Source: Botryllus schlosseri (taxonomy: Eukaryota). Taken from it: a DNA stretch of 64,000 nt. The first letter of the stretch is position 1, and every line of letters begins with the position of its first letter. The stretch covers positions 27,778,001 to 27,842,000 of the forward strand of contig CM119372.1 in the NCBI GenBank assembly GCA_051294905.1. The letters run 5' to 3'. Positions 31,115 through 53,065 of this stretch are shown here, piece by piece. The position numbers and the translations under genes were made by a program. Below the pieces are notes generated by a model that made no database searches, had not been told where the DNA came from, and saw nothing but the letters and a program-made list of their open reading frames with translations.

Positions 31115-31710
31115 AGTAGTATATATGATCGGTCTTGTTGTGCCATTGGTTCTTATGGGCACGCTCAACGGTGACCGGTGACCCTTTTAACCCCCCTCTC
31201 GCTCAACCGTGCGTTGGCTAGTATAGGCATCTCTCGCACGGTAACCCTTTTCGGTAGGGATCGCTCAACCGGTGACCCCATGCACCCTTTTGCTGAAGCG
31301 GTGCGTGGGCTAGTATAGGGATCTCTGATGAGGTGATCTCTCGCGGAGACGTGGATGGTTGAAAACTCGTGTTCGCGATGGCGCCCTTTTAGACCTCCTA
31401 TCGCCGAACCGGTGCGTGGGGTAGTATAGGGATCGCTCGCATGTCGTACTTTCGGGTATAGGCGTCTCTCGTGTGGTGTCTTATGGCTGCGGTGGCAAGC
31501 CGTATTTTCAGGTAGAGGTTGCGTTGGCATGTCGTCCTTCGTATGGTGTCGAACGTGTATCAAGAATATTGATCACGTGATTGATCCTTACATGATGTTT
31601 GTATACCAGATTATTATATATGACCGATTCGTGTTAATCCCAACGTTTACGGTGATTGCGACTTCAATATATCATTTTTCTTATGGCTGCGGTCGTGAAC
31701 TAATGTTAAA
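31115..31710 (+). mobile_element. Orphan, diverged Polinton/Maverick-type terminus related to the 36198-48928 element
   Basis: Starts AGTAGTATATATGATCGGTC...TCTTATGGGC (cf. AGTAGTATATAGGATCGGTC...TCTTATGGGC); shares GTATAGGCATCTCTCGCACGG, GTCGTACTTTCGGGTATAGGC and ATATTGATCACGTG motifs; no partner end in the window. Confidence 0.75.
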
Positions 31711-35014: not shown

Positions 35015-35173
35015 TCTAGATTGAGCAGCTCATCCTGCAATCAGCGTCGAGAGCTTGTTGCGAGGTTTTGGTCTTCTGGTGTAAAGGCTTACTTGTTGTA
35101 ATACTATAGCGGTACTCGGATAGGATTACGTGCAGTGAGAAGTTAATTGCTGTATAAGCCACCATCCCGCCTG

Positions 35174-36197
35174 ATGGCAGCGGATGTTGGTAACGATGAC
35201 ATGGAATTTACTGTTGTCACGTCAAAACGCAGTAAAAGAGGTTCACAAAGCGAGTCTGATTGTGATAGTCCGCCATTGAAAGCAATGAATAATAAGTCTG
35301 ATGCAGACTATTCTGGCCGCTCAGCCGATCCAGCTCGCACCGAAAATTTGAAAATAGTTGTTAAGGGTAAAGATAGGAAGATGAAACACTATCATCCTAC
35401 CACAGTGAACAAGTGCTTACACGCAGTGATTGGTAATTATGAAGGGATCCGTGTCTTCCCGTCGGGAGACTTACTCGTCACCTGTCACAATCGCATGCAG
35501 GCCGATAAGCTCATATCTCTAGATATGTTTACGGACGGAGTAGTGTCAATTCCAATTAATACGGGATGTTACGATGAGAGTAAACTGCATCAGCATGCGT
35601 CTAGGGCCGTTATCCGAGGTGTGCCAGCTGACATTATCCGAGGTGTGCCAGCTGACATGTCAGAATACGAAGTTGTTGAATTCCTCAGCGAATCACACGT
35701 GTGCTTTGCTGAACGTCTAAAACGCAAGTCCACTGATGGCTATGTTGCTAGTTTGTCAATGCTGCTCGGGTTTAATGTTCCAACACCTCCAGATGAGTTG
35801 TATATTGGATATCTTCGATTCAAGACCAATCCCTATAATCCTCCCCCATTGAGGTGCCACCGATGCAATCGATTTGGTCACACGAAGGCTAATTGCGGCG
35901 GAAGAAAAACGTGCTCCAAATGTGGGAGTCATGAGCATGAACATCATCAGTGCGATCAGGAAAAGAGGTGTGTCAATTGTAAAATGCCCAATAGCGCAGC
36001 TTACGGTGGGTGCCCAGTGTATAAAAGGGAAGCCAAAATACAAATAATTCGAGAACGAGAGAGTCTATGGTATGTCGATGCTAAATCCAAAGTATCGCAT
36101 GTCGATGCTAAATCAAAAGCACCAGAAACATCTTCACATACACAATTGTCGCCAACTCCCAGCGGTAAAACTTATAGTCAGGCTGTACACAGACGGC
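35174..36197 (+). CDS. LINE ORF1 (gag-like, zinc knuckles), 5' part
   Basis: CHRCNRFGHTKANC, CSKCGSHEHEHHQC, CVNC..; interrupted by the Polinton-like insertion. Confidence 0.92.
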
Positions 36198-36235
36198 AGT
36201 AGTATATAGGATCGGTCGCGAGGTGGCAGGGGCTC

Positions 36236-37295
36236 TTATGGGCGGGGTGGCGAGCTAACGAGAAACCGGGGGTGGCGAACTAACGTTTTCGTCTTATGGC
36301 GGGGGTGGCGAACTAACGTTTCGTCTTATGGCGGGGGTGGCGAACTAACGTTTTCGTCTTATGGGCGGGGTGGCGAGCTAACGAGAAACCGGGGGTGGCG
36401 AACTAACGTTTTCGTCTTATGGCGGGGGTGGCGAACTAACGTTTTCGTCTTATGGGTGCGGCGGTGATGTGCCTGAAAACCGGGGGTGGTGACTCGTACT
36501 TTCAGACCCCCCTCTCGGCCGTGAGTCGTAATGGCTTCTTATGGATGCGGTCGTGATTCGTACTTTCAGGTATAGGCTGCGGCGGTGACTCGTATTGAAA
36601 ACTTGGGGTCGTGATTCGTACTTTTGGGTATAGGCTGCGGCGGTGACTCGTATTGAAAACTCGGGGTCGTGATTCGTACTTTCCCGCGATTCGTAATGGT
36701 TCTTATGGACGCGGTCGTGATTCGTACTTTCGGTATAGGCATCTCTCGCACGTCGTACTTTCGCGTATAGGCTGTGGCGGTGATTCGCCTGTCGTGTATT
36801 CTTACGGGATCTGTGGTGATTCGCCATGTGTTCTTATGGATGCGGTCGTGATTCGTACTTTCAGGCATCTCTCGCACGGTGTGGAATATGTATCAGGTAT
36901 ATTGATCACGTGTGTCTTATGGCGGAGGTGACCAGAGGCTCTTTTGTCTTATGGCGGCGGTGACATGCGGCTATTTTGTCTTGTGGTCGCACGGTAACCC
37001 TTTTCAGCATAGGGATCGGTCGCACGTCGTACTTTCGCGTATAAGCTGTGGCGGTGATTCGTCTGTCATGTATTCTTACGCGATCTCTGGTGATTCGCCA
37101 TGTGTTCTTATGGGTGCGCTCGCACGTCGTACTTTCAAGTATAGGTATCTCTCGCATATCGTATCGAAAACTCGTGTTGACACATCGTACTTTTAGGTAT
37201 TGACACGCATGCGGCTATTGTGTCTTATGGGTGCGGCCGTGAATCGCCCTTTCGGTATAGACATCTCTCGCATATCGTACTTTCGGGTATAGGCA
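36236..37295 (+). repeat. Subterminal GC-rich tandem and modular repeats of the left arm
   Basis: ~30-bp unit GGGGTGGCGAACTAACGTTTTCGTCTTATGGC (about 7 variants, 36236-36452), then degenerate modules with GATTCGTACTTT, GTATAGGC and TCTTATGG. Confidence 0.9.
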
Positions 37296-40200
37296 TCACT
37301 AAACAGGAAATTCACTAATCCGCAGTGCATTGGGCGATTTTGAAAACCAGATGTTGGCGGTTGTATTTTGACCTGTGTGACCCACTAAATACGTCCGTTT
37401 TGGAAATTCGGAGCGCACACTATCGTATCGATTATTCCACTAATCCAGTCGGTGCTATTACATTCAGCAGTATTCAGTATTCAGCAGCGACACGAAAAGC
37501 GAGCAACAAATAACCGCGCTCGTAAATTAACACTTCAAAAAGTGTAAAATAGATTGCAAATCCCGCGATCGCTAACAAGATGTCTCGAACATAACCATTT
37601 TTTAGTGACTTGGTGTTAAAGACATACCGATCGCTCACAAGGTAATATTTCCGCAATAAGTTTGTCACAGAGCCGGCGCAGACGGTGATTCCTAAACCAA
37701 CAATTTGACACTTTCTGGTGGTCGCTATATGTTTTGACACTTCGAACAGTGGCTGACTTTAGTTGCGCGATAAGAATTATGAGAATATTCAATCAATGTA
37801 TCAATTTGCCAACTCGAAATGAAACTTACTACACAGCTCAAGTTGATTCGTATCTGAATGTGTTAATTCGGTACAATTCTAATTATTTCGAGAAATCTTT
37901 TCGTGATCTTTTGATTCGACCATAACCCGAATATTACTGACACCGACTTTCAGCCACATTGAATTATTCACACACCCGCGCTGCTGTTTTCACAACTATA
38001 ACTCTACAAGAATCAAGAATCACAAGTATGTGCATTACACAGTTATTGTCTTTATTACCTTGAAATCAAACTCTTAACAAAAACACGCATCGTATCACTC
38101 GTCAACTCTATCATGAAAATCCTCGAGTCCTTATCATCAAAAATGTTATAGCGCGGCGTCGGAATCCATTCGTGGGATGTACTAAAGGTAAATCCAGATA
38201 ATCCAAAATGAAATAATTGGACTTTGACATAGTCTGAATTGAAATAGATTGACAAACACGACTAACAACTTTCAACCCAGTCATATTTAGAGATTATACG
38301 CACATTGATTCGAAACAAGTAATGAAACATTACAACTCTATTCGCGACCTGTCTTTACGTTTGTCAAAGAGAGTTTCAGAAATATTATCACTATGACATC
38401 TCAACATTTTAACATCTTGCCACCAACAAAAGAGTAAAATACAAAAACCTTGTCGAGTCAATCCGTTTGTAACTAACCGAACCAAAGCAAAAAGTGTCCA
38501 TACGAAAAGTAGACAAGACTACGCAAGTAATCACTACAACCCACAAACAAATCAAGTTCGGTTTTAGACATATACCACCAACTCGTCTTTTTTGTTCAAC
38601 TGTAAAAGTCGTTACTATGCCGCAAGACCAAGAAATTACTATGCGGTGTATTTTGTAAGACAAAAGTAATTACTTCTCGGTGTCAGCGACTTGAGATTAA
38701 CATAATATATTCGAGTATTCGACATTTGAAAGTATGACCATCGTAGTTTCTTACAATCGAACGCAGGTGTTATATCGAAAATTATCGTGATGTGAACATA
38801 AGGATTGACACATCGATTTAACATAGGAGATTTGTAATGGTCTATCATGACTTGATTATTAAATTATTCGCGTTAATTAGACCCGGCGTTGTGGTAAAGG
38901 TTATTAGGACAGCAACAAACTTTTCAGTACCGTTATTATTAACATATTGAGTTGAAAAACTATATGCGTGTCTGAAATGTTCTTGAATGGAAAATTATTC
39001 CACCTTGGTACATATCACCCTGCGTATCGCGGATATCAGAAAATATTTTACAAATGTAATTGTCTCCACTAACCAAGACTAAAGATGAAACAACAATTTC
39101 CTTTGTTAAACAATAACCGGTACAATACTTTAGCATCGTAATCAGCAGTGAGAATTGAAACACTTTCGCACATTATCCGGCGTCAAGATATCACACTAGG
39201 TGAATTGACATACCGCCGCTTGATTAATACCTAATCCATTCGCACCATTTCACATACTTTGATCATTACAAAAGTAAATTGGAATATGTTTGCTAGATGC
39301 ATTCAATTCAGTTACAAATGTCTGGTACACAACAATCGTAATATCAAGGAAGTACTTGCTACGTTGTAATTCACTTAACGTGTTTTGTATTGTTGTTCAT
39401 TTGTAGTATTGATTGTTTTTGAACCCCCAAATAATAATTCCCGACATGAAACCAAACCGCCGAAAGTCGTTACCATCACAACGAAACAATTTGTACGATG
39501 TTTGCCAAATGTATCCTATAGTTAGGTGTACTAGAATTATTTGTCTAACACATACACCGACAATGCAACCGAAAATTTTTCCGTTATCATTCGTTAAAGT
39601 AAATGTCATCACAATACTCATCAAGCTGTCATCTGTAAATCAAGATTACATCCAACTTGTAACTGTATCGTTTAACTACCGGGTTGCATCAGTTTGCTAT
39701 TTTTGTCATTTAGTGACTGCCGAACATACCAAACGATACATATTCACTTACGAAATACTGTGTTGATCGTAATTTCCATCATCGTGATAATCAAAGTACA
39801 TTTGTTTCGATTTCATAACAACCGACTACTTTTCTATGACATGATAAATTTTTGACAAGTTATGCTTAGAATATTGGTGCATACCGCGAAAAATAATATA
39901 CCACTCATATTGATAGTGTTACTCCATTCATCGGTATATTTTCCGTTGTCGATTTTCAAACGAGTAAAATTTATTACTTGAGTTGTTCTGCTTACTATAT
40001 TTAAATGTAAACTCGCCCGTCTTTCAACAAAAAACAATGATAAAAACGTATGCAATCAAACACAACAAGTTTTACTGTAGGACACTAATTATTACCCCAC
40101 ATAACTCATTTCTTACCGAAGACATATGAAATATATTCATGTTACACGAAAATACTCGATATACCCATGCTACGAACATACGCAATGATTGGTGACGCTT

Positions 40201-41576
40201 TCACACTATTTCGATTTAGTGTAACAAAAACAACAACAATTTCCACTCTCTTGACTCATGAAAACAAGAGACGAACCTTCATTCAATATTTTGTTTTTGT
40301 CAACTAGTTACTTTTTCATGAGACCCCCACAACTCTTACAAAAGTACGACACAAAGTAATCAACTTTACTCGATATTCTCACATTACGAAACTAAAGAAT
40401 GGTTGGTTTGACTCCACAAACTGTTTCGATACCTCAAGAACTTTATTGTCTGAATGGTTGGTCATGTATCTTGATAATCAAGTAGTTCAACACACAACTA
40501 GTATTAACAGAAACACCAGAGTTGCTTACACAAAAGTTTGTATGTGTACAGTATGCGAATACCACGTGTAAGTCCAACCCAATTGTGGTATCCATCCGAG
40601 TTTAGTTAACACAATTTACGACACCGAGGTCGCCTCATCTTTCGTAAGACAACAAACCAACCAAGGCTTCAGGATATGTCAATGTCATAACAATAAATCA
40701 GCTACTCCAACAACAGAGTGCATATGTTTTCTAGTTACGGTGCTTACATCTTACACACAAATCAATCTACTTTGCTAACGAAAAGTGGTGAGTCATCACA
40801 TGGTTGTCCTCACAACAATACAACTAAACATACTATCATACAAAATGGTTGTTATAGTTTGCACGCCAATGGTACATCGTACAAGTAACAAGTCTCGAGA
40901 ATCCAGTTATTCAAAAAACGTGAAAGTATTTCTACGCCAAGTCGTTATGTTGACGAAAGTGTATATTGTAATATCATGATTGATTTGCATTCGTTGGTTA
41001 CAAAATGTCACTACTCTAAATAATTATTTTTCACTCAAAAGCATATTTGTCACCATTCGTTTTCATCAAGCACGAGTTCAAGAAACTTACTTACTGCTAC
41101 ATGAATTGCTGTTTTTATGTTGTGTAAATAGGTAATAATTATTTTTAGTAACACTATATCAACATCATCGAGTTGTGCGAAAAGATTTACATGTGGTCTT
41201 GTGGTTTTAATCGAAGTACACAGCACGGTCTAATGTAGAGTCATCTCTATTGTACAGCAACTCGGTAATCGAAATGCATGCATTGACATTTAAACAGCGA
41301 TCTTGTTTCGTCACGCGAAAAATATGTTCACTATCGCGATACTCTGCACAGGGCGTGCAAATCCTTTTCACACTCGTAATAGTATACCAACAGCTACCAG
41401 TCACAACGTTTAACAATACCAACGACACTAAACATACGATACCTACCCAAGTAAAATTACCATTTTCACCTAGAGGTCAGCCGCTACCTGAGTAAAAATA
41501 CCATTATCCTTTGGAGATTTATCGTTTACCCTGTGTAACAATACATTTTCTCTTGGAGGTCTATCGTTTCCTAGAG

Positions 41577-41961
41577 TAACAAACCATTTTCACTTGCAAA
41601 TATATTTTTTCCTGGGTAACAAACCTTTTTCACTTGGAAATATATTTTTTCCCCTGGGTAACAAACCTTGTTCACTTGGAAATATATTTTTTCTCTGGGG
41701 TAACAAACCTTTTTCACTTGGAAATATATTTTTTCTCTGGGGTAACAAACCTTTTTCACTTGGAAATATATTTTTTCTCTGGGTAACAAACCTTTTTCAC
41801 TTGGAAATATATTTTTTCTTTGGGTAACAAACCTTTTTCACTTGGAAATATTTTTTTCTTCTTGGTAACAATCCTTTTTCACTTGGAAATATTTTTTTCT
41901 TCTTGGTAACAATCCTTTTTCACTTGGAAATATATTTTTTCTCTGGGTAACAAACCTTTTT
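41577..41961 (+). repeat. ~41-bp tandem array (9 full copies plus a partial) near the inner end of the left arm
   Basis: Unit TAACAAACCTTTTTCACTTGGAAATATATTTTTTCTCTGGG; (CA)n at ~42113-42132. Confidence 0.95.
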
Positions 41962-43163
41962 CGTTTTGAAAACTGACAACCACTCCGGCCAATTTGATAT
42001 TTTTGTATATTGTTACAACGGACAGTGACACAATATAAACAACGACTCCGATACATTTGTGTAATCGCATACTCACTTGTTCTGGTGCATCCCATCAAAA
42101 TCGACGGTTAGCCACACACACACACACACACAATAACAATGCGCTATTTCGATATGACTGCGATGTCCGGGTTCGTGCTTTAGATTTTCCAGAACCAATC
42201 CGTCTAAAGTTGTAATCCCCCCGCCTTTGTTCACTGGTTGATACACGGATAACAATCTTCGTAAAATGTAGGAACGCATACTACCCATCGTGCTAACGAT
42301 TCCAGGGTACTTGTGATTAATTTCCTTGCTCACCCTATACAGATTATACGTACAGCGATATGTAGCGGTAATCGGTTTGGTCAATACATATCGCCCCATT
42401 CAGTATGGAATTACAAACCCAATACAGGTCAGTTCATAACCGGATCCGGATATTCAATGCAAAGCGATAAAGCAGAACCAATGACCAAATGTAATTAAAC
42501 ATGTAGATTCACAACCCTTGATTTTTCTTCGTGAAAAATGACAATACATATCGAATATATATTTTACGATGGTTCAACCCTACCAAGTATTCACGTAAAT
42601 GTGGTTTATGACATTACATACAATGTATCAGTGTATCAATGTTGGGTGTTTATGCACACATCGGTATGACCCATAGACAACATCATCATACCCTCCAGGA
42701 CTTCGTTATTGCATCGTGAGGTCGATAAAATCAATCGGTGGCATAGACGACAGAAGGCTTGGAGATCCAATGTAAAATTCAGACAAACAAACGGATATAT
42801 TTGTCCATCTTGGTTATTCGCTCAACTACCATTGGTGCTCTCGATACAGCGAACGGTACAGTTTGCAACGCATATCATTAGAGTGATATATCCACAGGTA
42901 AATATGGGGCCTGGCCACAATAATTGTATCGAGATATAACCTCGAAGCACGAACCCGGACATCGCAGTCATATCGAAATAGCGCATTGTTATTGTGTGTG
43001 TGTGTGTGTGTGGCTAACCGTCGATTTTGATGGGATGCACCAGAACAAGTGAGTATGCGATTACACAAATGTATCGGAGTCGTTGTTTATATTGTGTCAC
43101 TGTCCGTTGTAACAATATACAAAAATATCAAATTGGCCGGAGTGGTTGTCAGTTTTCAAAACG

Positions 43164-43548
43164 AAAAAGGTTTGTTACCCAGAGAAAAAATATATTTCCA
43201 AGTGAAAAAGGATTGTTACCAAGAAGAAAAAAATATTTCCAAGTGAAAAAGGATTGTTACCAAGAAGAAAAAAATATTTCCAAGTGAAAAAGGTTTGTTA
43301 CCCAAAGAAAAAATATATTTCCAAGTGAAAAAGGTTTGTTACCCAGAGAAAAAATATATTTCCAAGTGAAAAAGGTTTGTTACCCCAGAGAAAAAATATA
43401 TTTCCAAGTGAAAAAGGTTTGTTACCCCAGAGAAAAAATATATTTCCAAGTGAACAAGGTTTGTTACCCAGGGGAAAAAATATATTTCCAAGTGAAAAAG
43501 GTTTGTTACCCAGGAAAAAATATATTTGCAAGTGAAAATGGTTTGTTA
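43164..43548 (-). repeat. Mirror ~41-bp tandem array in the right arm
   Basis: Reverse complement of 41577-41961. Confidence 0.95.
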
Positions 43549-46500
43549 CTCTAGGAAACGATAGACCTCCAAGAGAAAATGTATTGTTACACAGGGTAAA
43601 CGATAAATCTCCAAAGGATAATGGTATTTTTACTCAGGTAGCGGCTGACCTCTAGGTGAAAATGGTAATTTTACTTGGGTAGGTATCGTATGTTTAGTGT
43701 CGTTGGTATTGTTAAACGTTGTGACTGGTAGCTGTTGGTATACTATTACGAGTGTGAAAAGGATTTGCACGCCCTGTGCAGAGTATCGCGATAGTGAACA
43801 TATTTTTCGCGTGACGAAACAAGATCGCTGTTTAAATGTCAATGCATGCATTTCGATTACCGAGTTGCTGTACAATAGAGATGACTCTACATTAGACCGT
43901 GCTGTGTACTTCGATTAAAACCACAAGACCACATGTAAATCTTTTCGCACAACTCGATGATGTTGATATAGTGTTACTAAAAATAATTATTACCTATTTA
44001 CACAACATAAAAACAGCAATTCATGTAGCAGTAAGTAAGTTTCTTGAACTCGTGCTTGATGAAAACGAATGGTGACAAATATGCTTTTGAGTGAAAAATA
44101 ATTATTTAGAGTAGTGACATTTTGTAACCAACGAATGCAAATCAATCATGATATTACAATATACACTTTCGTCAACATAACGACTTGGCGTAGAAATACT
44201 TTCACGTTTTTTGAATAACTGGATTCTCGAGACTTGTTACTTGTACGATGTACCATTGGCGTGCAAACTATAACAACCATTTTGTATGATAGTATGTTTA
44301 GTTGTATTGTTGTGAGGACAACCATGTGATGACTCACCACTTTTCGTTAGCAAAGTAGATTGATTTGTGTGTAAGATGTAAGCACCGTAACTAGAAAACA
44401 TATGCACTCTGTTGTTGGAGTAGCTGATTTATTGTTATGACATTGACATATCCTGAAGCCTTGGTTGGTTTGTTGTCTTACGAAAGATGAGGCGACCTCG
44501 GTGTCGTAAATTGTGTTAACTAAACTCGGATGGATACCACAATTGGGTTGGACTTACACGTGGTATTCGCATACTGTACACATACAAACTTTTGTGTAAG
44601 CAACTCTGGTGTTTCTGTTAATACTAGTTGTGTGTTGAACTACTTGATTATCAAGATACATGACCAACCATTCAGACAATAAAGTTCTTGAGGTATCGAA
44701 ACAGTTTGTGGAGTCAAACCAACCATTCTTTAGTTTCGTAATGTGAGAATATCGAGTAAAGTTGATTACTTTGTGTCGTACTTTTGTAAGAGTTGTGGGG
44801 GTCTCATGAAAAAGTAACTAGTTGACAAAAACAAAATATTGAATGAAGGTTCGTCTCTTGTTTTCATGAGTCAAGAGAGTGGAAATTGTTGTTGTTTTTG
44901 TTACACTAAATCGAAATAGTGTGAAAGCGTCACCAATCATTGCGTATGTTCGTAGCATGGGTATATCGAGTATTTTCGTGTAACATGAATATATTTCATA
45001 TGTCTTCGGTAAGAAATGAGTTATGTGGGGTAATAATTAGTGTCCTACAGTAAAACTTGTTGTGTTTGATTGCATACGTTTTTATCATTGTTTTTTGTTG
45101 AAAGACGGGCGAGTTTACATTTAAATATAGTAAGCAGAACAACTCAAGTAATAAATTTTACTCGTTTGAAAATCGACAACGGAAAATATACCGATGAATG
45201 GAGTAACACTATCAATATGAGTGGTATATTATTTTTCGCGGTATGCACCAATATTCTAAGCATAACTTGTCAAAAATTTATCATGTCATAGAAAAGTAGT
45301 CGGTTGTTATGAAATCGAAACAAATGTACTTTGATTATCACGATGATGGAAATGACGATCAACACAGTATTTCGTAAGTGAATATGTATCGTTTGGTATG
45401 TTCGGCAGTCACTAAATGACAAAAATAGCAAACTGATGCAACCCGGTAGTTAAACGATACAGTTACAAGTTGGATGTAATCTTGATTTACAGATGACAGC
45501 TTGATGAGTATTGTGATGACATTTACTTTAACGAATGATAACGGAAAAATTTTCGGTTGCATTGTCGGTGTATGTGTTAGACAAATAATTCTAGTACACC
45601 TAACTATAGGATACATTTGGCAAACATCGTACAAATTGTTTCGTTGTGATGGTAACGACTTTCGGCGGTTTGGTTTCATGTCGGGAATTATTATTTGGGG
45701 GTTCAAAAACAATCAATACTACAAATGAACAACAATACAAAACACGTTAAGTGAATTACAACGTAGCAAGTACTTCCTTGATATTACGATTGTTGTGTAC
45801 CAGACATTTGTAACTGAATTGAATGCATCTAGCAAACATATTCCAATTTACTTTTGTAATGATCAAAGTATGTGAAATGGTGCGAATGGATTAGGTATTA
45901 ATCAAGCGGCGGTATGTCAATTCACCTAGTGTGATATCTTGACGCCGGATAATGTGCGAAAGTGTTTCAATTCTCACTGCTGATTACGATGGTAAAGTAT
46001 TGTACCGGTTATTGTTTAACAAAGGAAATTGTTGTTTCATCTTTAGTCTTGGTTAGTGGAGACAATTACATTTGTAAAATATTTTCTGATATCCGCGATA
46101 CGCAGGGTGATATGTACCAAGGTGGAATAATTTTCCATTCAAGAACATTTCAGACACGCATATAGTTTTTCAACTCAATATGTTAATAATAACGGTACTG
46201 AAAAGTTTGTTGCTGTCCTAATAACCTTTACCACAACGCCGGGTCTAATTAACGCGAATAATTTAATAATCAAGTCATGATAGACCATTACAAATCTCCT
46301 ATGTTAAATCGATGTGTCAATCCTTATGTTCACATCACGATAATTTTCGATATAACACCTGCGTTCGATTGTAAGAAACTACGATGGTCATACTTTCAAA
46401 TGTCGAATACTCGAATATATTATGTTAATCTCAAGTCGCTGACACCGAGAAGTAATTACTTTTGTCTTACAAAATACACCGCATAGTAATTTCTTGGTCT

Positions 46501-47829
46501 TGCGGCATAGTAACGACTTTTACAGTTGAACAAAAAAGACGAGTTGGTGGTATATGTCTAAAACCGAACTTGATTTGTTTGTGGGTTGTAGTGATTACTT
46601 GCGTAGTCTTGTCTACTTTTCGTATGGACACTTTTTGCTTTGGTTCGGTTAGTTACAAACGGATTGACTCGACAAGGTTTTTGTATTTTACTCTTTTGTT
46701 GGTGGCAAGATGTTAAAATGTTGAGATGTCATAGTGATAATATTTCTGAAACTCTCTTTGACAAACGTAAAGACAGGTCGCGAATAGAGTTGTAATGTTT
46801 CATTACTTGTTTCGAATCAATGTGCGTATAATCTCTAAATATGACTGGGTTGAAAGTTGTTAGTCGTGTTTGTCAATCTATTTCAATTCAGACTATGTCA
46901 AAGTCCAATTATTTCATTTTGGATTATCTGGATTTACCTTTAGTACATCCCACGAATGGATTCCGACGCCGCGCTATAACATTTTTGATGATAAGGACTC
47001 GAGGATTTTCATGATAGAGTTGACGAGTGATACGATGCGTGTTTTTGTTAAGAGTTTGATTTCAAGGTAATAAAGACAATAACTGTGTAATGCACATACT
47101 TGTGATTCTTGATTCTTGTAGAGTTATAGTTGTGAAAACAGCAGCGCGGGTGTGTGAATAATTCAATGTGGCTGAAAGTCGGTGTCAGTAATATTCGGGT
47201 TATGGTCGAATCAAAAGATCACGAAAAGATTTCTCGAAATAATTAGAATTGTACCGAATTAACACATTCAGATACGAATCAACTTGAGCTGTGTAGTAAG
47301 TTTCATTTCGAGTTGGCAAATTGATACATTGATTGAATATTCTCATAATTCTTATCGCGCAACTAAAGTCAGCCACTGTTCGAAGTGTCAAAACATATAG
47401 CGACCACCAGAAAGTGTCAAATTGTTGGTTTAGGAATCACCGTCTGCGCCGGCTCTGTGACAAACTTATTGCGGAAATATTACCTTGTGAGCGATCGGTA
47501 TGTCTTTAACACCAAGTCACTAAAAAATGGTTATGTTCGAGACATCTTGTTAGCGATCGCGGGATTTGCAATCTATTTTACACTTTTTGAAGTGTTAATT
47601 TACGAGCGCGGTTATTTGTTGCTCGCTTTTCGTGTCGCTGCTGAATACTGAATACTGCTGAATGTAATAGCACCGACTGGATTAGTGGAATAATCGATAC
47701 GATAGTGTGCGCTCCGAATTTCCAAAACGGACGTATTTAGTGGGTCACACAGGTCAAAATACAACCGCCAACATCTGGTTTTCAAAATCGCCCAATGCAC
47801 TGCGGATTAGTGAATTTCCTGTTTAGTGA

Positions 47830-48890
47830 TGCCTATACCCGAAAGTACGATATGCGAGAGATGTCTATACCGAAAGGGCGATTCACGGCCGCACCCATAA
47901 GACACAATAGCCGCATGCGTGTCAATACCTAAAAGTACGATGTGTCAACACGAGTTTTCGATACGATATGCGAGAGATACCTATACTTGAAAGTACGACG
48001 TGCGAGCGCACCCATAAGAACACATGGCGAATCACCAGAGATCGCGTAAGAATACATGACAGACGAATCACCGCCACAGCTTATACGCGAAAGTACGACG
48101 TGCGACCGATCCCTATGCTGAAAAGGGTTACCGTGCGACCACAAGACAAAATAGCCGCATGTCACCGCCGCCATAAGACAAAAGAGCCTCTGGTCACCTC
48201 CGCCATAAGACACACGTGATCAATATACCTGATACATATTCCACACCGTGCGAGAGATGCCTGAAAGTACGAATCACGACCGCATCCATAAGAACACATG
48301 GCGAATCACCACAGATCCCGTAAGAATACACGACAGGCGAATCACCGCCACAGCCTATACGCGAAAGTACGACGTGCGAGAGATGCCTATACCGAAAGTA
48401 CGAATCACGACCGCGTCCATAAGAACCATTACGAATCGCGGGAAAGTACGAATCACGACCCCGAGTTTTCAATACGAGTCACCGCCGCAGCCTATACCCA
48501 AAAGTACGAATCACGACCCCAAGTTTTCAATACGAGTCACCGCCGCAGCCTATACCTGAAAGTACGAATCACGACCGCATCCATAAGAAGCCATTACGAC
48601 TCACGGCCGAGAGGGGGGGTCTGAAAGTACGAGTCACCACCCCCGGTTTTCAGGCACATCACCGCCGCACCCATAAGACGAAAACGTTAGTTCGCCACCC
48701 CCGCCATAAGACGAAAACGTTAGTTCGCCACCCCCGGTTTCTCGTTAGCTCGCCACCCCGCCCATAAGACGAAAACGTTAGTTCGCCACCCCCGCCATAA
48801 GACGAAACGTTAGTTCGCCACCCCCGCCATAAGACGAAAACGTTAGTTCGCCACCCCCGGTTTCTCGTTAGCTCGCCACCCCGCCCATAA
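47830..48890 (-). repeat. Mirror subterminal repeats in the right arm
   Basis: Reverse complement of 36236-37295. Confidence 0.9.
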
Positions 48891-48934
48891 GAGCCCCTGC
48901 CACCTCGCGACCGATCCTATATACTACTGACGGC

Positions 48935-49314
48935 AGGCTGTACACCAACGTCAGAATGCCTCTGCTAAGTCAACTTCGGCGAAAATCAGTCCACCGCGAC
49001 AACCCCTTCCAAATGATGCGAACTTATCCTTTTTGGAGACCTCTTCTCATGTAAACGAGGCCACCGAGGCCGCCAGTACCCCGTCCGAATCAGATCACGA
49101 CTCGTCAATTCTATCTATCATGTCTTCTACACATCCGTTACTATTCTTCGCATTCATATGCGAAATTGTGAACCTCACAGCTAAAACTTGTCGTTCAAGC
49201 GATGATATCGATCTTCCGTCATTGATTACCTCCGCGGCACAGAAGTGGCTAAGCGTTTCTTTCGACCCTGAATCACTGAAAAGCCTTTTGAGCGCAGTTC
49301 CACAAAATGTATAA
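48935..49314 (+). CDS. LINE ORF1, 3' part
   Basis: Removing the insert and one TSD gives an open frame YSQAVHRRQAVHQRQNASAK...LETSSH...VPQNV*; its end overlaps the ORF2 ATG (49307) by 8 nt. Confidence 0.85.
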
Positions 49315-52300
49315 GAACGCTGGTGTTCTTATACTGCAATGGAACTGCAGAGGAATATACAGGAACTTACCTGAACTGAAGAACTTTATAGAACAACTCC
49401 CTACGCCTCCTGATATTATGTTAATTCAAGAGACACATCTTATTGGTAAATATGTTCCAAAGATTAAAGGGTACATCATGGAAAGAAAAGATAAAACACT
49501 TCGCAGTGGTGGGCTAGCCATTTTAATCAATAAGCAATTGTCTTATCGAATACTCGATATTCAGTCACCCGGTGGTGGTATAGATACGCTGTGCATCGAA
49601 GTGAACGGTTTGCGGATCTGTAACATATACTGCTCTCCCGAGTACCGAGTTGTTGATGGTGACTTAGACTTCTTGGGTGACCTGTCCGACAGGTCTTTGA
49701 TATTAGGTGATTTCAATGCCCATCACTGGTCATGGAGTGCTGGAAACTCGAATCGCAGAGGTCACTTGTTGTATGATTCGATAAATCGGCATGGATTGGT
49801 AACTCTGAACGCAACGAGTCCAACTCGCATCAATACTGCATACAACGCAGTGAGCAGGGCCTCACTCATCGACTTGTCACTGGCGTCGGCAGATATCGCA
49901 CACTCGTGCTCTACCAACGTGACAAACTCCCTATTAGGCAGTGATCATTTTGTCATACTGACATCTTTATTGGCTAAACTACCCCGCTCTAACAAACGTC
50001 CGCTTACTTGGGCCCTCTCGAAGGCAGATTGGGCGAGCTTTCGCCAGATCCTTGATCTACCCGAGGTGCCAAATTTAGGGAACAACATTGACGCCATGGT
50101 CGACAAATTCACTAGTGATGTATTATGTGCGGCCAGCCGGTCCATTCCAATCAAGAGAAGTCACAGTCGCTCATCAGTACCATCGTGGAACGACGATTGT
50201 GCCAGGGCTGTGAAAAAGAAGAAGGCAGCGTTTTTGAAAATGAGGCAAACGTTTGATGCGCAATACATTGCTGAATTTAAACGTAGTCGGGCACAGTGCA
50301 GACGAGTGATACTAACAGCGAAACGTGAATCATGGAGATCCTTTTGTGAAACACTTGGCACCAGGGGAAATCTCCAGAAAGTGTGGAGTGTCGTCCGTTC
50401 TATTTCGGGCAATCTTTCTAATAGTTCGGTGGCATCTTTGAAAGTTGAGAGCAATTATATTACTGATGAAAGAGGAAAAGCACAAATACTAGCGAAGACA
50501 TTCCAACGTTGTAGCAGCTCTTTGAATTACCGTCATAGGTTGGACTTGAGAGCTTCACTCCTCATAGAAGTCGAACACCATAGGAACGATACTCTTCTGA
50601 ACAATCCTTTCACGATTGCAGAGCTTGAGAAAGCACTGAAGTCGAAAAAAGACACGTCCCCGGGACATGACACTCTTTGCTACTCCATGTTCAAAAACTT
50701 CCCGCCAGATGCCCTACTCAGTATGCTTTCGGTGATAAATAACTCATGGTGCAATGGGACTGCCCCTCGCAGCTGGAAGCACTCGATTGTTATTCCAATT
50801 CCCAAAGGAAACAAGGACCGATCAGACCCACAGTCATATCGTCCTATAGCCTTAACCAGCCACCTCTGTAAAGTGATGGAGACGATGATTATGAAGCGAC
50901 TATCTTGGTATCTAGAAAAGCACGGCTTACTCCACTCAGCTCAAAGTGGCTTTCGTCGGGGACGGCGGGCCCTGGATCATGTTCTCCGATTACACGATGC
51001 CACTTACAAAGCTATCCATATTGGAAGATCGGTCTTAGCTGTCTTCTTAGACATCGAGAGAGCATATGACATGGTGTGGAGGGCTGCTGTCATCCATAAA
51101 TTACGGGAAATGGGTATTTCGGGGCCTTGTCTTTCTTGGATCAACAATTTCATACACGACCGTACTTTTCAAGTTCGAATCGGGACAACGTTATCCGACA
51201 TTTTCCTCACCGAAAATGGTATTCCGCAGGGGAGTGTGCTTAGCCCTTTGTTATTCAGCATTATGATAAATGACCTTCCAACAGTTATCGAGTCAGACAT
51301 GGGGCTCTATGCGGACGATTGTGCCATTTGGGAGGCCGGTCTTGCTGTTGACCAACTTGCTCAAAACATTCAGTCATCCCTTGATCAGATCCATCGATGG
51401 TGTGTAAAGTGGGGTTTTATGGTATCGGTCGAGAAATCCGTAGCAATGGTTTTCACGAAAAAGCGAAATTATGCACAACCTGTACTCAAACTTGGAAGTC
51501 ATCAACTGAGGTAACTTGGAAGTCATCAACTGAGGTATGTGGAATCCTTCAAATATTTAGGTGTCACTTTTGACAAAAGACTCAACTATAAGATACACAC
51601 ATCTAACGTTGCATCCAAATGCGCAAAGCGCATGAATTTACTCAAAATGGTATCCGGCACATCTTGGGGTGCATCCACTCGAACGCTATTAACCCTGTAT
51701 AGGAGCCTGATAAGACCCATCATAGAGTATGGCATGGAAGCGAAGCGTACTTCTTCGCACCGAAATCACACCTCACGAAAATAATATCAATCCGAAATCA
51801 AGCTCTGAGACTTTCTTGCGGTGCCATGTCCAGCACCCCTATCTGCGTATTAGAGGCCTCGTGTAACGACATGCCCCTTTTTCTAAGGCACCAATATCTT
51901 TGTCTCAAGTACCGTTCCAAGATCAGAACACAACAATCAAACCCAGCACGCAGTTTATTGGAGGGTTCATGGGAGGAAATGTACAATCTACTCTCCGACC
52001 GATTTGTGACTTTCAATCTCTTATCCCGACTTCAAATATTGGATGATTTGCAAGTCAGAGGTGACCATCCTCTAACCATATGCCCTTGGTTATTGAAATG
52101 CGCTATGATTGATACATCATTACAAACAGCCCTCGGACGCGATCCACCAAGTCACATTGTCGATGCTATATTCAGAGATTATATTTTTGAGCAATACCCA
52201 AACAGAATGCTAGTTTACACCGTTGGATCTGAAAACATCAACGGTGCTGGGTACTCCTTCTACATCCCCGATCGCAATATAAGAACATCAAAAGTATGTT

Positions 52301-53065
52301 CGAAACTCCTATCAATCTTCTCGATTGAGCTGAAAGCAATATTCGATGCACTGATATGGATTTCAGAAAATTCCATCGAACGTGTTGCTATTCTGAGTGA
52401 CTCTTTGAGTGCATTGCTGTCGTTGAAAACCTATCTTGGTGAAAATAACTAACTATATTACCAATCAAATATTATATCAAATATTAGAACTAACTCACCA
52501 TCTCTTACATGAAAGCCATAGAGATATTTCTTTTGTATGGATTCCAGGACACTGTGGTATTGAAGGGAACGAAGTCGCTGACCGACTTGCGAAAGAGGCT
52601 GCGGCCCATGACTTAGCTGACCAAAGTGTAGATCTTACTTCTAGCGAGGCCAACTCATTGATTTTAGGTCGCTGTAGGCAAGACTGGAACCAACGTTTCA
52701 TTGAAACCGCCTCTGGAGCACATTTCAAACAGTTCTGCCCTGACATATACACAAAACTACCTACTTTTACCACGCCACGCCGTGCCGAAACCACCATTTT
52801 CAGATTACGCACCGGACATTGTCGTCTCAACTCCTATCTTAACAAAATTGGATGCTCCGATACCCCTGATTGTACCACATGCCATGTAGAAGAAACTGCA
52901 GAGCACGTTATTATGGAGTGTGCAAAGTACGTTAATGAAAGATGCCAGTTTAGAGCTGCCGTAATGGACCTGAGAGTACTCTTCACCATGGAAAATGTAA
53001 TAACAAGTGATTATATATTACCTTTGCTGTGGGAATTCCTTGCGAAGACAAAAAGACAATACTAA
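49307..53065 (+). pseudogene. LINE ORF2: AP endonuclease, reverse transcriptase, RNase H, CCHC; one stop and two frameshifts
   Basis: QWNCRG, QETH, GDFNAH, SDH; YRPIALT, QSGFR, PQGSVLSP, YADD, KYLGV; RNase H (YTVGS with mutated Asp, IELKAI, LSDS, WIPGHCGIEGNEVAD); CTTC..ETAEHVIMEC. Confidence 0.96.

What the first reader, a model, noticed from the sequence alone, without database searches (positions are those of the whole stretch)
36198..48928. 12.7-kb snap-back palindrome with Polinton/Maverick termini and no genes
Seen: ~5,983-bp inverted arms, a 764-bp loop, AGTAGT...ACTACT ends, an exact 6-bp TSD GACGGC, and an interrupted LINE ORF1 that rejoins in frame, so this was a single integration event. 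Known: Polintons have 6-bp TSDs from a retroviral-like integrase and AG...CT termini with short terminal repeats used in protein-primed pPolB initiation; their TIRs are usually hundreds of bp. Inference: a coding-dead parasite of a Polinton/polintovirus, 94% of it inverted repeat, analogous to copy-back defective viral genomes and mobilised in trans. I recall long-TIR non-autonomous Polintons being described in fish, so novelty needs checking, but this family appears uncharacterised from what I can see.
Basis: partly seen in the sequence, partly recalled or inferred. Interest (0 to 1): 0.9.

Follow-up and report, generated by a model that had tools for sequence, protein, structure and literature searches.

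The report
Giant palindromic hitch-hiker of Polinton transposons
This 12.7-kb stretch is a real, recently inserted, gene-less mobile element made of two mirror-image halves; it belongs to a very large family that borrows the ends, and so probably the enzymes, of virus-like Polinton/Maverick transposons living in the same animal genome.

Summary
Window 36198-48928 is a 12,731-bp element with inverted arms of 5,983 and 5,984 nt. The arms differ by 2 substitutions and one C-run indel. It has a 764-bp centre, AGTAGT...ACTACT ends and a perfect 6-bp duplication (GACGGC), and it sits in frame inside a LINE ORF1.

It is not a one-off snap-back. All 10 other copies I fetched have the same architecture. 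The end motif occurs about 2,300 times in the genome.

An 18.3-kb element with the same end motif, its own 6-bp duplication and related subterminal repeats encodes a protein-primed polymerase and a chromodomain integrase. The Polinton link is therefore shown.

- The palindrome is inherited. Arms are 96.4-99.95% alike within a copy, while copies differ by up to 25%.
- The window's "loop" is the inner end of one arm, left unpaired by a roughly 1.1-kb central deletion specific to this copy.
- Nine of 11 copies carry a conserved 91-93-aa gene in the centre. This copy and one other lack it.

Mobilisation in trans, hairpin-based replication and a packaging size constraint are inferred, not shown. 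I found no paper describing such elements. Earlier notes of this scan report the same family on other DNA of this genome.

The parts
36192..36197 (.). Left copy of the 6-bp target-site duplication GACGGC
   Evidence: Paralogous empty LINE sites have one copy only.
36198..42180 (+). Left arm, 5,983 nt, non-coding
   Evidence: No ORF over 127 aa. No Rfam match at E<=0.1 in 36000-43200.
36198..36217 (+). Terminal motif AGTAGT-N6-GATCGNTC, beginning with the (AGT)2 Maverick end motif
   Evidence: There are 2,299 genome matches against 20 for the control. The (AGT)2//(ACT)2 motif is described for vertebrate Mavericks (PMC8097293, passages).
36267..36455 (+). Six tandem 33-bp terminal repeats, mirrored at 48671-48859
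36546..36683 (+). Subterminal 32/58-bp repeats related to the 32-bp repeats in the TIR of the coding Polinton
   Evidence: (93% over 106 bp, E 9e-41).
41525..41962 (+). 41-bp tandem array of 10.6 units near the inner end of the arm, mirrored at 43163-43600
42181..42928 (+). Segment X (748 bp). In complete relatives it is the innermost part of both arms; here only one copy is left, so it looks like a loop.
42929..42944 (+). Thirteen nt from the edge of the ancestral 339-bp loop plus 3 nt at the deletion junction. About 1,087 bp (the loop and the second X) are missing.
   Evidence: The junction is unique among the 40 scored of 449 candidates.
42945..48928 (-). Right arm, 5,984 nt, the mirror of the left arm
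48929..48934 (.). Right copy of the target-site duplication GACGGC
35147..36199 (+). Host LINE ORF1, 5' part (contains a CCHC motif), interrupted by the insertion
   Evidence: No Pfam match.
48931..49314 (+). Host LINE ORF1, 3' part, in frame with the 5' part once the element and one duplication copy are removed
49307..51514 (+). Host LINE ORF2 (endonuclease and reverse transcriptase)

Best explanation
The element is a non-autonomous, non-coding member of a large family of palindromic derivatives of the genome's own Polinton/Maverick elements.

Shown:
- It carries the Maverick (AGT)2 ends and makes a 6-bp duplication.
- Its outer 1-2 kb is homologous to the ends of coding Polintons.
- It has no Polinton genes.
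- It inserted recently into a young LINE copy.
- The palindromic layout is inherited, and the two arms of each copy change in lock-step between lineages.

Inferred mechanism:
- The helper's integrase joins the two identical ends to the target.
- The helper's protein-primed polymerase copies the element from its (AGT)2 ends.
- Each displaced single strand snaps back into a roughly 6-kb hairpin. Mismatch correction or copying round the loop resets the arms to identity in every cycle, so arms diverge only after integration.
- The inner 4-5 kb of each arm acts as stuffer. It keeps the whole element at about 13.6-14.9 kb, roughly three quarters of helper length, perhaps because the element is packaged in helper capsids.
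- This particular copy then lost the true loop and one inner arm segment in an asymmetric central deletion, of the kind long palindromes are prone to.

My odds: family identity and dependence on Polintons about 0.9; replicative hairpin stage about 0.5; packaging size constraint about 0.35. The confidence given for this field is for the statement as a whole.
For: Ends and duplications:
- The end motif and 6-bp duplication are present in the window copy.
- Of 9 further copies with both ends intact, 8 have a perfect 6-bp duplication and 1 has 5 of 6.

The helper:
- The 18.3-kb element at G000:C1:5923771-5942033 has the same 20-nt end motif, duplication GCCGAG and 443-bp TIRs.
- It encodes a 1,214-aa polymerase (PF03175, E 5.5e-8) and a 359-aa rve plus chromodomain integrase.
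- 38 polymerase copies were scored of 437 candidates. They are 92-95% identical, and 34 of 38 have no internal stop.

Shared sequence with helpers:
- Palindrome ends are colinear with the ends of two polymerase-bearing elements over 0.6-1.3 kb at 81-91% identity.
- They also match the unique subterminal regions of either helper end (C3b 90.7% over 549 bp; C7 89% over 938 bp).
- There is no similarity to the polymerase, integrase or ATPase.

Inherited architecture:
- All 10 fetched copies are palindromes, with arms 96.4-99.95% identical within a copy.
- Identity between copies is 65-95%, and both arms give mirrored, equal alignments.

Arms diverge after insertion:
- The copy with the most diverged arms (C3b, 96.4-98.6%) is also the only one with a decayed duplication.
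- The host LINE flank is 98-99% identical to 8 paralogues.

Size:
- 9 copies with both ends and without a large deletion measure 13.6-14.9 kb, although they have three different centre types.
- 22 of 40 motif pairs are 12.5-15.6 kb long, with a median of 13.7 kb. Eight are 16-21.5 kb. Of the three in that longer class that I examined, all hold a polymerase.

Literature analogy:
- Helper-dependent adenovirus genomes need only the ITRs and a packaging signal, and rearrange below about 75% of wild-type length.
- A 15-kb vector is packaged as direct and inverted dimers (PMC4189039, passages).
- Maverick size is constrained, and the repeated end motif serves the jumping-back step of protein-primed replication (PMC8097293, passages).
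Against: - No extrachromosomal, hairpin or encapsidated form was observed.
- The one read-laying run gave only very short, collapsed contigs, with no listed piece bridging the central junction.
- Tight size could simply reflect common descent.
- Only 11 palindromic copies were read in full, and the 10 others were picked because their termini resemble the window's.
- Most copies carry a conserved small gene of unknown function. The family may therefore contribute something of its own that this model does not explain.
- The origin of the inner 4-5 kb of the arms is unknown.
- The Polinton transposition mechanism has not itself been demonstrated experimentally, as far as I recall.
Confidence: 0.7

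Rival explanations
1. It is a plain cut-and-paste (or integrase-only) non-autonomous transposon. The helper integrase recognises only the terminal bases, and there is no replication by the helper polymerase and no packaging. The palindromy is a historical accident, and the arms are alike because copies are young.
For: Only the termini and the 6-bp duplications are directly shown. Most insertions look young.
Against: Lineages up to 25% apart all keep near-identical arms, so something resets the arms before each insertion. Total length is held at 13.6-14.9 kb across three centre types. The outer 1-2 kb, not just the tips, tracks helper ends and has been exchanged with either helper end.
Confidence: 0.2
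2. The copies are old, and their arms are kept alike in place by intrachromosomal gene conversion, as in large chromosomal palindromes.
For: Arms are 96.4-99.95% alike while copies differ by 5-35%.
Against: Duplications are perfect in 8 of 9 further copies and in the window copy, and the one copy with diverged arms is also the one with a decayed duplication. The host LINE copy is 98-99% identical to paralogues, so this insertion is young. Close relatives of the window arm exist at 95-99% identity.
Confidence: 0.07
3. It is a foldback transposon of another superfamily (FB/MuDR-like or Galileo/P-like) that only resembles Polinton ends.
For: It has long inverted arms with tandem repeats near the tips.
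Against: The duplication is 6 bp, not the 9 or 7 bp I recall for FB and Galileo. It has the (AGT)2 end motif, and its ends are homologous over 0.6-1.3 kb to elements that encode a protein-primed polymerase and an rve integrase.
Confidence: 0.02
4. It is an assembly artefact, such as a fold-back chimeric read.
For: The arms are almost identical, and one of the three differences is a homopolymer length.
Against: The boundaries are precise with a duplication, and paralogous empty sites exist. There are 2,299 motif hits genome-wide. The same architecture is seen in 11 copies on several chromosomes.
Confidence: 0.01

Closest known systems
Autonomous Polintons/Mavericks (e.g. vertebrate Mavericks, PMC8097293, passages read; the genome's own 17-21 kb elements)
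   Same: The (AGT)2//(ACT)2 end motif, the 6-bp duplication, terminal inverted repeats, and sequence homology of the outer 1-2 kb to the genome's own coding elements.
   Different: There are no polymerase, integrase, ATPase or capsid genes. The inverted repeats are 6-6.8 kb, or 94-97% of the element, against 46-1,447 bp reported for vertebrate Mavericks and 443 bp in the local coding element.
Helper-dependent ('gutless') adenovirus genomes and their inverted dimers (PMC4189039, passages read)
   Same: A protein-primed linear replicon reduced to its terminal cis signals plus non-coding stuffer, dependent on a helper. Inverted dimers arise to reach a minimum length of about 75% of the helper's. 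Here the ratio is about 14 kb against 17-21 kb.
   Different: Those are laboratory products that re-form from monomers. This is a natural, heritable, integrated lineage with its own diversification and, in most copies, its own small gene. Packaging has not been shown here.
Foldback transposons (Drosophila FB, Galileo; Galileo paper PMC4168063 seen only in a search listing; features recalled)
   Same: Very long inverted arms with tandem repeats, a short centre and mostly no coding capacity.
   Different: A 6-bp duplication, Maverick end motif and Polinton helper. The arms are several times longer than any I recall for those families.
Butterfly polintons with ~2-kb TIRs (bioRxiv 10.1101/2025.02.07.637071, passages read)
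   Same: Polinton inverted repeats much longer than usual.
   Different: Those repeats carry hexon and adenain genes within a coding element. Here the repeats are three times longer, non-coding, and make up nearly the whole element.
Transpovirons (PMC5499653, passages read)
   Same: Small linear dsDNA elements with terminal inverted repeats that lack capsid genes and ride on a larger virus.
   Different: Transpovirons encode a helicase and other proteins and depend on giant viruses. They are not giant palindromes.

Membership tests
Polinton/Maverick superfamily (as a non-autonomous derivative) | 6-bp target-site duplication | tested here: met
   GACGGC on both flanks, with a single copy at 2 of 2 paralogous empty sites. 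Of 9 further copies with both ends, 8 are perfect and 1 has 5 of 6.
Polinton/Maverick superfamily (as a non-autonomous derivative) | 5'-AG...CT-3' ends, here the (AGT)2//(ACT)2 end motif | tested here: met
   The motif is as described in PMC8097293.
Polinton/Maverick superfamily (as a non-autonomous derivative) | Terminal sequence shared with a coding Polinton of the same genome | tested here: met
   The 20-nt motif and 32-bp repeats are shared, at 93% over 106 bp for the window copy. Other family members match helper ends over 0.6-1.3 kb at 81-91%.
Polinton/Maverick superfamily (autonomous member) | Encodes a protein-primed family B polymerase and an rve integrase | tested here: not met
   The window element has no ORF over 127 aa, no Pfam match at the curated threshold and no tblastn similarity to helper proteins. 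The partner element does meet this feature.
Polinton/Maverick superfamily (as a non-autonomous derivative) | Mobilised in trans by helper integrase/polymerase | not testable with these tools
   Inferred from the shared ends and from the abundance of intact helpers.
Foldback transposons (FB/MuDR-like, Galileo/P-like) | Duplication of 9 bp (FB) or 7 bp (Galileo); both values recalled | tested here: not met
   The duplication is 6 bp in all 11 elements where it could be read.
Foldback transposons (FB/MuDR-like, Galileo/P-like) | Long inverted arms containing tandem repeats | tested here: met
   This is a resemblance only.
Copy-back / snap-back defective viral genomes | Made of one genome end duplicated in inverted orientation | tested here: inconclusive
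   The outer 1-2 kb derives from helper ends, from either end in different copies. The inner 4-5 kb has no detectable helper counterpart.
Copy-back / snap-back defective viral genomes | Generated de novo from the helper during its replication | tested here: not met
   The architecture is inherited in diverged lineages with lock-step arms.
Copy-back / snap-back defective viral genomes | Replicated and packaged by the helper | not testable with these tools
   There are no data on free or encapsidated forms. One search was uninformative.

The most novel reading that the evidence does not exclude
These palindromes are natural 'gutless' satellite genomes of polintoviruses. They are inverted dimers that carry the helper's replication, integration and possibly packaging signals at both ends. 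Stuffer pads them to the minimum length the helper capsid accepts. Snap-back hairpin replication keeps the arms identical. Most lineages carry one small gene of their own in the only unpaired segment. They would then spread both within the genome (roughly 1.5-3% of it, a rough extrapolation) and between animals.
Probability: 0.35. Interest if true: 0.85.

Novelty: new variant of a known kind. Interest (0 to 1): 0.68.

Why it matters
How Polintons/Mavericks replicate and move has, as far as I recall, never been shown experimentally. A family of about a thousand young, helper-dependent palindromes gives several natural handles on that question:
- Arms that are reset to identity in every cycle point to a single-stranded, fold-back intermediate.
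- Length held near three quarters of helper length is what encapsidation would predict.
- Repeated exchange of end modules with helpers marks the cis-acting region.

Practical points follow as well. Repeats of this size and symmetry are hard to assemble and annotate. They are likely hot spots of instability. They would also be missed by Polinton surveys that search for polymerase and integrase genes.

Tried and rejected
- A genome search with Pfam PF03175 found nothing, although the polymerase is there. It was a false negative of that search mode, and the controls did not ring either.
- My first end-motif pattern had one N too many and hit an unrelated repeat. It was corrected.
- Rfam gave no match in the arm and centre at E<=0.1.
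- Pfam found no family for 8 element ORFs, apart from a DUF5624 hit at E 0.077, below its cut-off.
- The small centre gene gave no Pfam match (best TriTu, E 0.11, 1 of 6 members) and no PDB relative (best E 0.84).
- The AlphaFold model of the small gene had mean pLDDT 45.5, so I did not use it for a fold search.
- The Atlas hits were all under 0.9 and gave no lead.
- The small gene has only 5 database relatives, all unnamed.
- Sequencing runs: no RNA holder is listed.
- Laying contigs of 4 runs on 42181-43100 gave only short, collapsed pieces, and none was listed as bridging the 42944/42945 junction. This says nothing either way about the junction.
- The type-C centre (window, C7 and the relative L052) has no ORF conserved better than its DNA.
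- Kapitonov & Jurka 2006 and Daniell 1976 are not held. What I say of them is recalled, or taken from papers that cite them.
- No supplementary files were opened.
Only one coding element was therefore read in full, together with the ends of three more elements of the longer size class.


Full report
THE OBSERVATION

Window 36198-48928 is a 12,731-bp element made of two inverted arms around a 764-bp centre.
- An exact comparison gives arms of 5,983 and 5,984 nt.
- The arms differ by two substitutions (39133/45992 and 39771/45354) and by one C6/C7 run length at 36507-36512. That is 99.95% identity, with 94.0% of the element in inverted repeat.
- The ends read AGTAGT...ACTACT, and GACGGC flanks both sides.
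- The interrupted ORF (35147-36199) resumes in frame at 48931 for 127 codons. It belongs to a LINE whose ORF2 has endonuclease and reverse-transcriptase domains.
- Two of two paralogous LINE copies that I read have the uninterrupted target with a single GACGGC.
- The element has no ORF above 127 aa, no Pfam hit at threshold and no Rfam hit.

IT IS A FAMILY, NOT AN ACCIDENT

The terminal 323 bp has 61 matches in the window's own 495.5-Mb assembly (40 scored of 1,610 candidates). Most lie in inverted pairs 13-15 kb apart.

I fetched 10 such pairs. All 10 are palindromes of the same design.
- Arms are 4.6-6.8 kb, except in one half-deleted copy.
- Arm identity is 98.6-99.95% in every copy except part of one (C3b, whose inner arm segment is 96.4%).
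- Centres measure 0.33-1.9 kb, or about 5 kb in two rearranged copies.

Between copies, identity is only 65-95%. Each alignment to one arm is mirrored by an equal alignment to the other arm. The two arms of a copy therefore evolve in lock-step.

Of the 9 further copies with both ends intact, 8 have a perfect 6-bp duplication, each different, and 1 has 5 of 6. One copy (C13) lacks 36 bp at one end.

The 20-nt end motif AGTAGT-N6-GATCGNTC occurs 1,156 times forward and 1,143 times reverse in the genome, against 6 and 14 for the reversed control. Among the first 100 listed matches, 40 plus/minus pairs can be formed:
- 22 span 12.5-15.6 kb (median 13.7 kb);
- 8 span 16-21.5 kb;
- 4 are shorter;
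- 6 are longer, and two of those resolve into nested elements.

This rules out an assembly artefact and a locus-specific snap-back.

THE LINK TO POLINTONS IS SHOWN

The 18.3-kb pair at G000:C1:5923771-5942033 has the following features:
- the same end motif;
- its own 6-bp duplication (GCCGAG);
- 443-bp TIRs at 99.5% identity;
- a 1,214-aa protein-primed polymerase (PF03175, E 5.5e-8);
- a 359-aa rve integrase with a chromodomain;
- a small ATPase with weak A32-like similarity.

A search with that polymerase returned 38 scored matches of 437 candidates, at 92-95% identity. Of these, 34 have no internal stop, and two lie inside motif pairs of 17.3 and 20.9 kb.

The palindromes share the following with these coding elements:
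- The end motif and subterminal 32-bp repeats. For the window copy this is 93% over 106 bp, E 9e-41.
- Colinear terminal sequence, in other copies, of 0.6-1.3 kb at 81-91% identity.
- Sequence from the unique region just inside either helper TIR. The left end matches C3b (90.7% over 549 bp) and C8. The right end matches C7 (89% over 938 bp).

Different palindrome lineages therefore carry modules from different helper ends, which points to repeated exchange with helpers.

None of the helper's proteins has any counterpart in the 11 palindromes. The only translated matches come from the repeat-derived frames of the TIR and from one 80-aa stretch in C8.

The (AGT)2//(ACT)2 motif, the 6-bp duplication, TIRs of 46-1,447 bp and a constrained size of about 17 kb are the published features of vertebrate Mavericks (PMC8097293, passages).

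WHAT THE WINDOW'S 'LOOP' REALLY IS

The 764-bp centre is itself a repeat that is 97-99% conserved (40 scored of 703 candidates). In many other copies it occurs twice, inverted, about 325 bp apart.

In a close relative (L052), the arms run through this segment (here called X, 748 bp) up to a 339-bp loop. The window copy aligns through X and 13 nt of the loop edge, and then jumps to the point on the other arm that lies just outside X. It lacks about 1,087 bp, namely the loop and the second X.

The junction was found only in the window copy among 40 scored of 449 candidates. In contigs of two other runs, the sequence at 42928 continues into the complete loop. The window element is thus a central-deletion derivative of an element of about 13.8 kb. 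Whether the deletion came before or after integration cannot be told.

THE FAMILY IS NOT ENTIRELY GENE-LESS

- Nine of 11 copies carry one 91-93-aa ORF in the unpaired centre. Eight are open and one (C3b) is disrupted. The window copy and C7 lack it.
- Pairwise dN/dS over 28 pairs is 0.12-0.66, and about 0.2 for the deepest pairs, where dS is about 1.
- The genome holds at least 150 matches (of 1,189 candidates), at 87-100% identity.
- Its function is unknown. Pfam, PDB sequences, an AlphaFold model (pLDDT 45.5) and the Atlas gave nothing usable.

The window copy and C7 belong to a subtype whose centre (X plus the 339-bp loop) has no ORF conserved better than its DNA.

HOW IT MOST LIKELY WORKS

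Shown:
- The element has helper-type ends and a helper-type duplication.
- It lacks helper genes.
- Intact helpers are abundant.
- Arms are identical or nearly so in young insertions.

The only copy with clearly diverged arms (C3b) is also the only one with a decayed duplication. The window's host LINE is 98-99% identical to its paralogues. Both facts indicate that arms start identical at insertion and drift afterwards, rather than being homogenised in place.

Inferred:
- The helper integrase inserts the element.
- The helper polymerase copies it from the repeated AGT ends.
- The displaced strand folds into a hairpin of about 6 kb, in which differences between the arms are erased.

Total length stays at 13.6-14.9 kb in the 9 copies that have both ends and no large deletion, although they have three different centre types. 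That is about three quarters of helper length.

Helper-dependent adenovirus genomes behave in a comparable way (PMC4189039, passages):
- They need only the ITRs and a packaging signal.
- They rearrange when shorter than about 75% of wild-type length.
- A 15-kb vector is packaged as direct and inverted dimers.
- Non-coding stuffer is used to reach the required size.

Adenovirus packaging signals lie just inside one ITR (PMC5033970, passages). An inverted dimer of one end would place such a signal at both ends. This analogy is the basis of the packaging hypothesis; nothing here tests it.

RIVALS

- Integrase-only mobilisation without replication or packaging remains possible (0.2).
- In-place gene conversion of old copies is unlikely (0.07).
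- A foldback transposon of another superfamily is refuted by the homology with helper ends (0.02).
- An assembly artefact is excluded (0.01).

NOVELTY

Four full-text searches and passages of six papers turned up no giant palindromic or non-coding Polinton derivative.
- The longest Polinton TIRs I found in print are about 2 kb, and they are gene-bearing (bioRxiv 10.1101/2025.02.07.637071).
- Repbase and Dfam could not be consulted.
- I recall that non-autonomous Polinton entries exist in Repbase, but not of this design.

I rate the finding a new variant of a known kind. Earlier notes of this scan (e1-7786796, e1-7803791, e1-7786340) describe the same family on other windows of this genome. One note (e1-7786388) calls the animal a sea squirt, which I did not test.

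LIMITS

- Only 11 palindromic copies and one coding element were read in full.
- The 10 further palindromes were chosen by similarity of their termini to the window's.
- Genome searches score only the best candidates, so all counts are lower bounds.
- The share of the genome (about 1.5-3%) is a rough extrapolation.
- No supplementary files were opened.

Noticed in passing
window 31115-31134 (+) and about 600 bp downstream: A third, solitary copy of the Polinton end motif (AGTAGTATATATGATCGGTC) lies here. It is followed by about 0.5 kb with weak similarity (75-81%) to Polinton TIR regions. This looks like a truncated end of another element, 5 kb upstream of the palindrome.
   Followed up: partly
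Centres of copies L033, L035, L040, L043, L046, L048 and others; not in the window: A single conserved 91-93-aa ORF sits in the unpaired centre of 9 of 11 copies: 8 are open and 1 is disrupted near the 3' end. dN/dS is 0.12-0.66 over 28 pairs, and about 0.2 in the deep pairs. In the genome, 150 matches were scored of 1,189 candidates, all at E<=4.6e-51. No family, fold or named relative was found.
   Followed up: yes
Flanks of 21 independent insertions (window, L003-L030, L031-L051): The 6-bp target has CG at its two central positions in 12 of 21 insertions and TG or CA in 7 of 21. This suggests an NNCGNN (YR-centred) target preference. For 10 of the 21, only one flank was read.
   Followed up: partly
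G000:C1:16768420-16810257: Three elements are nested one inside another, judged from the end-motif positions alone. The spans are 14.7 kb inside 28.7 kb inside 41.8 kb, so each layer adds 13-14 kb.
   Followed up: no
G000:C2:27881946-27885359, about 40 kb beyond the window's end: An intact-looking Polinton polymerase frame lies close to the window: 1,300 aa open, 95% identical to the query, with no internal stop.
   Followed up: no
window 42181-43100 in coded runs X4, X7, X9: Runs filed under a second species label hold 42-49% of the sampled words of the centre segment. One 482-nt contig differs from the window by 6 letters and 2 gaps. In two runs, contigs leave the window sequence at 42928 and continue with the first 30 nt of the complete loop seen in the relative L052. 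The family may be shared between species, or the labels may be close relatives.
   Followed up: partly
window 35147-36199, 48931-53065 and 1508-2305: The host LINE has an APE endonuclease, RT, RNase H and zf-RVT. Its ORF1 region is 98-99% identical to at least 8 other copies, so the LINE family is itself young. A second zf-RVT fragment lies at 1508-2305.
   Followed up: partly
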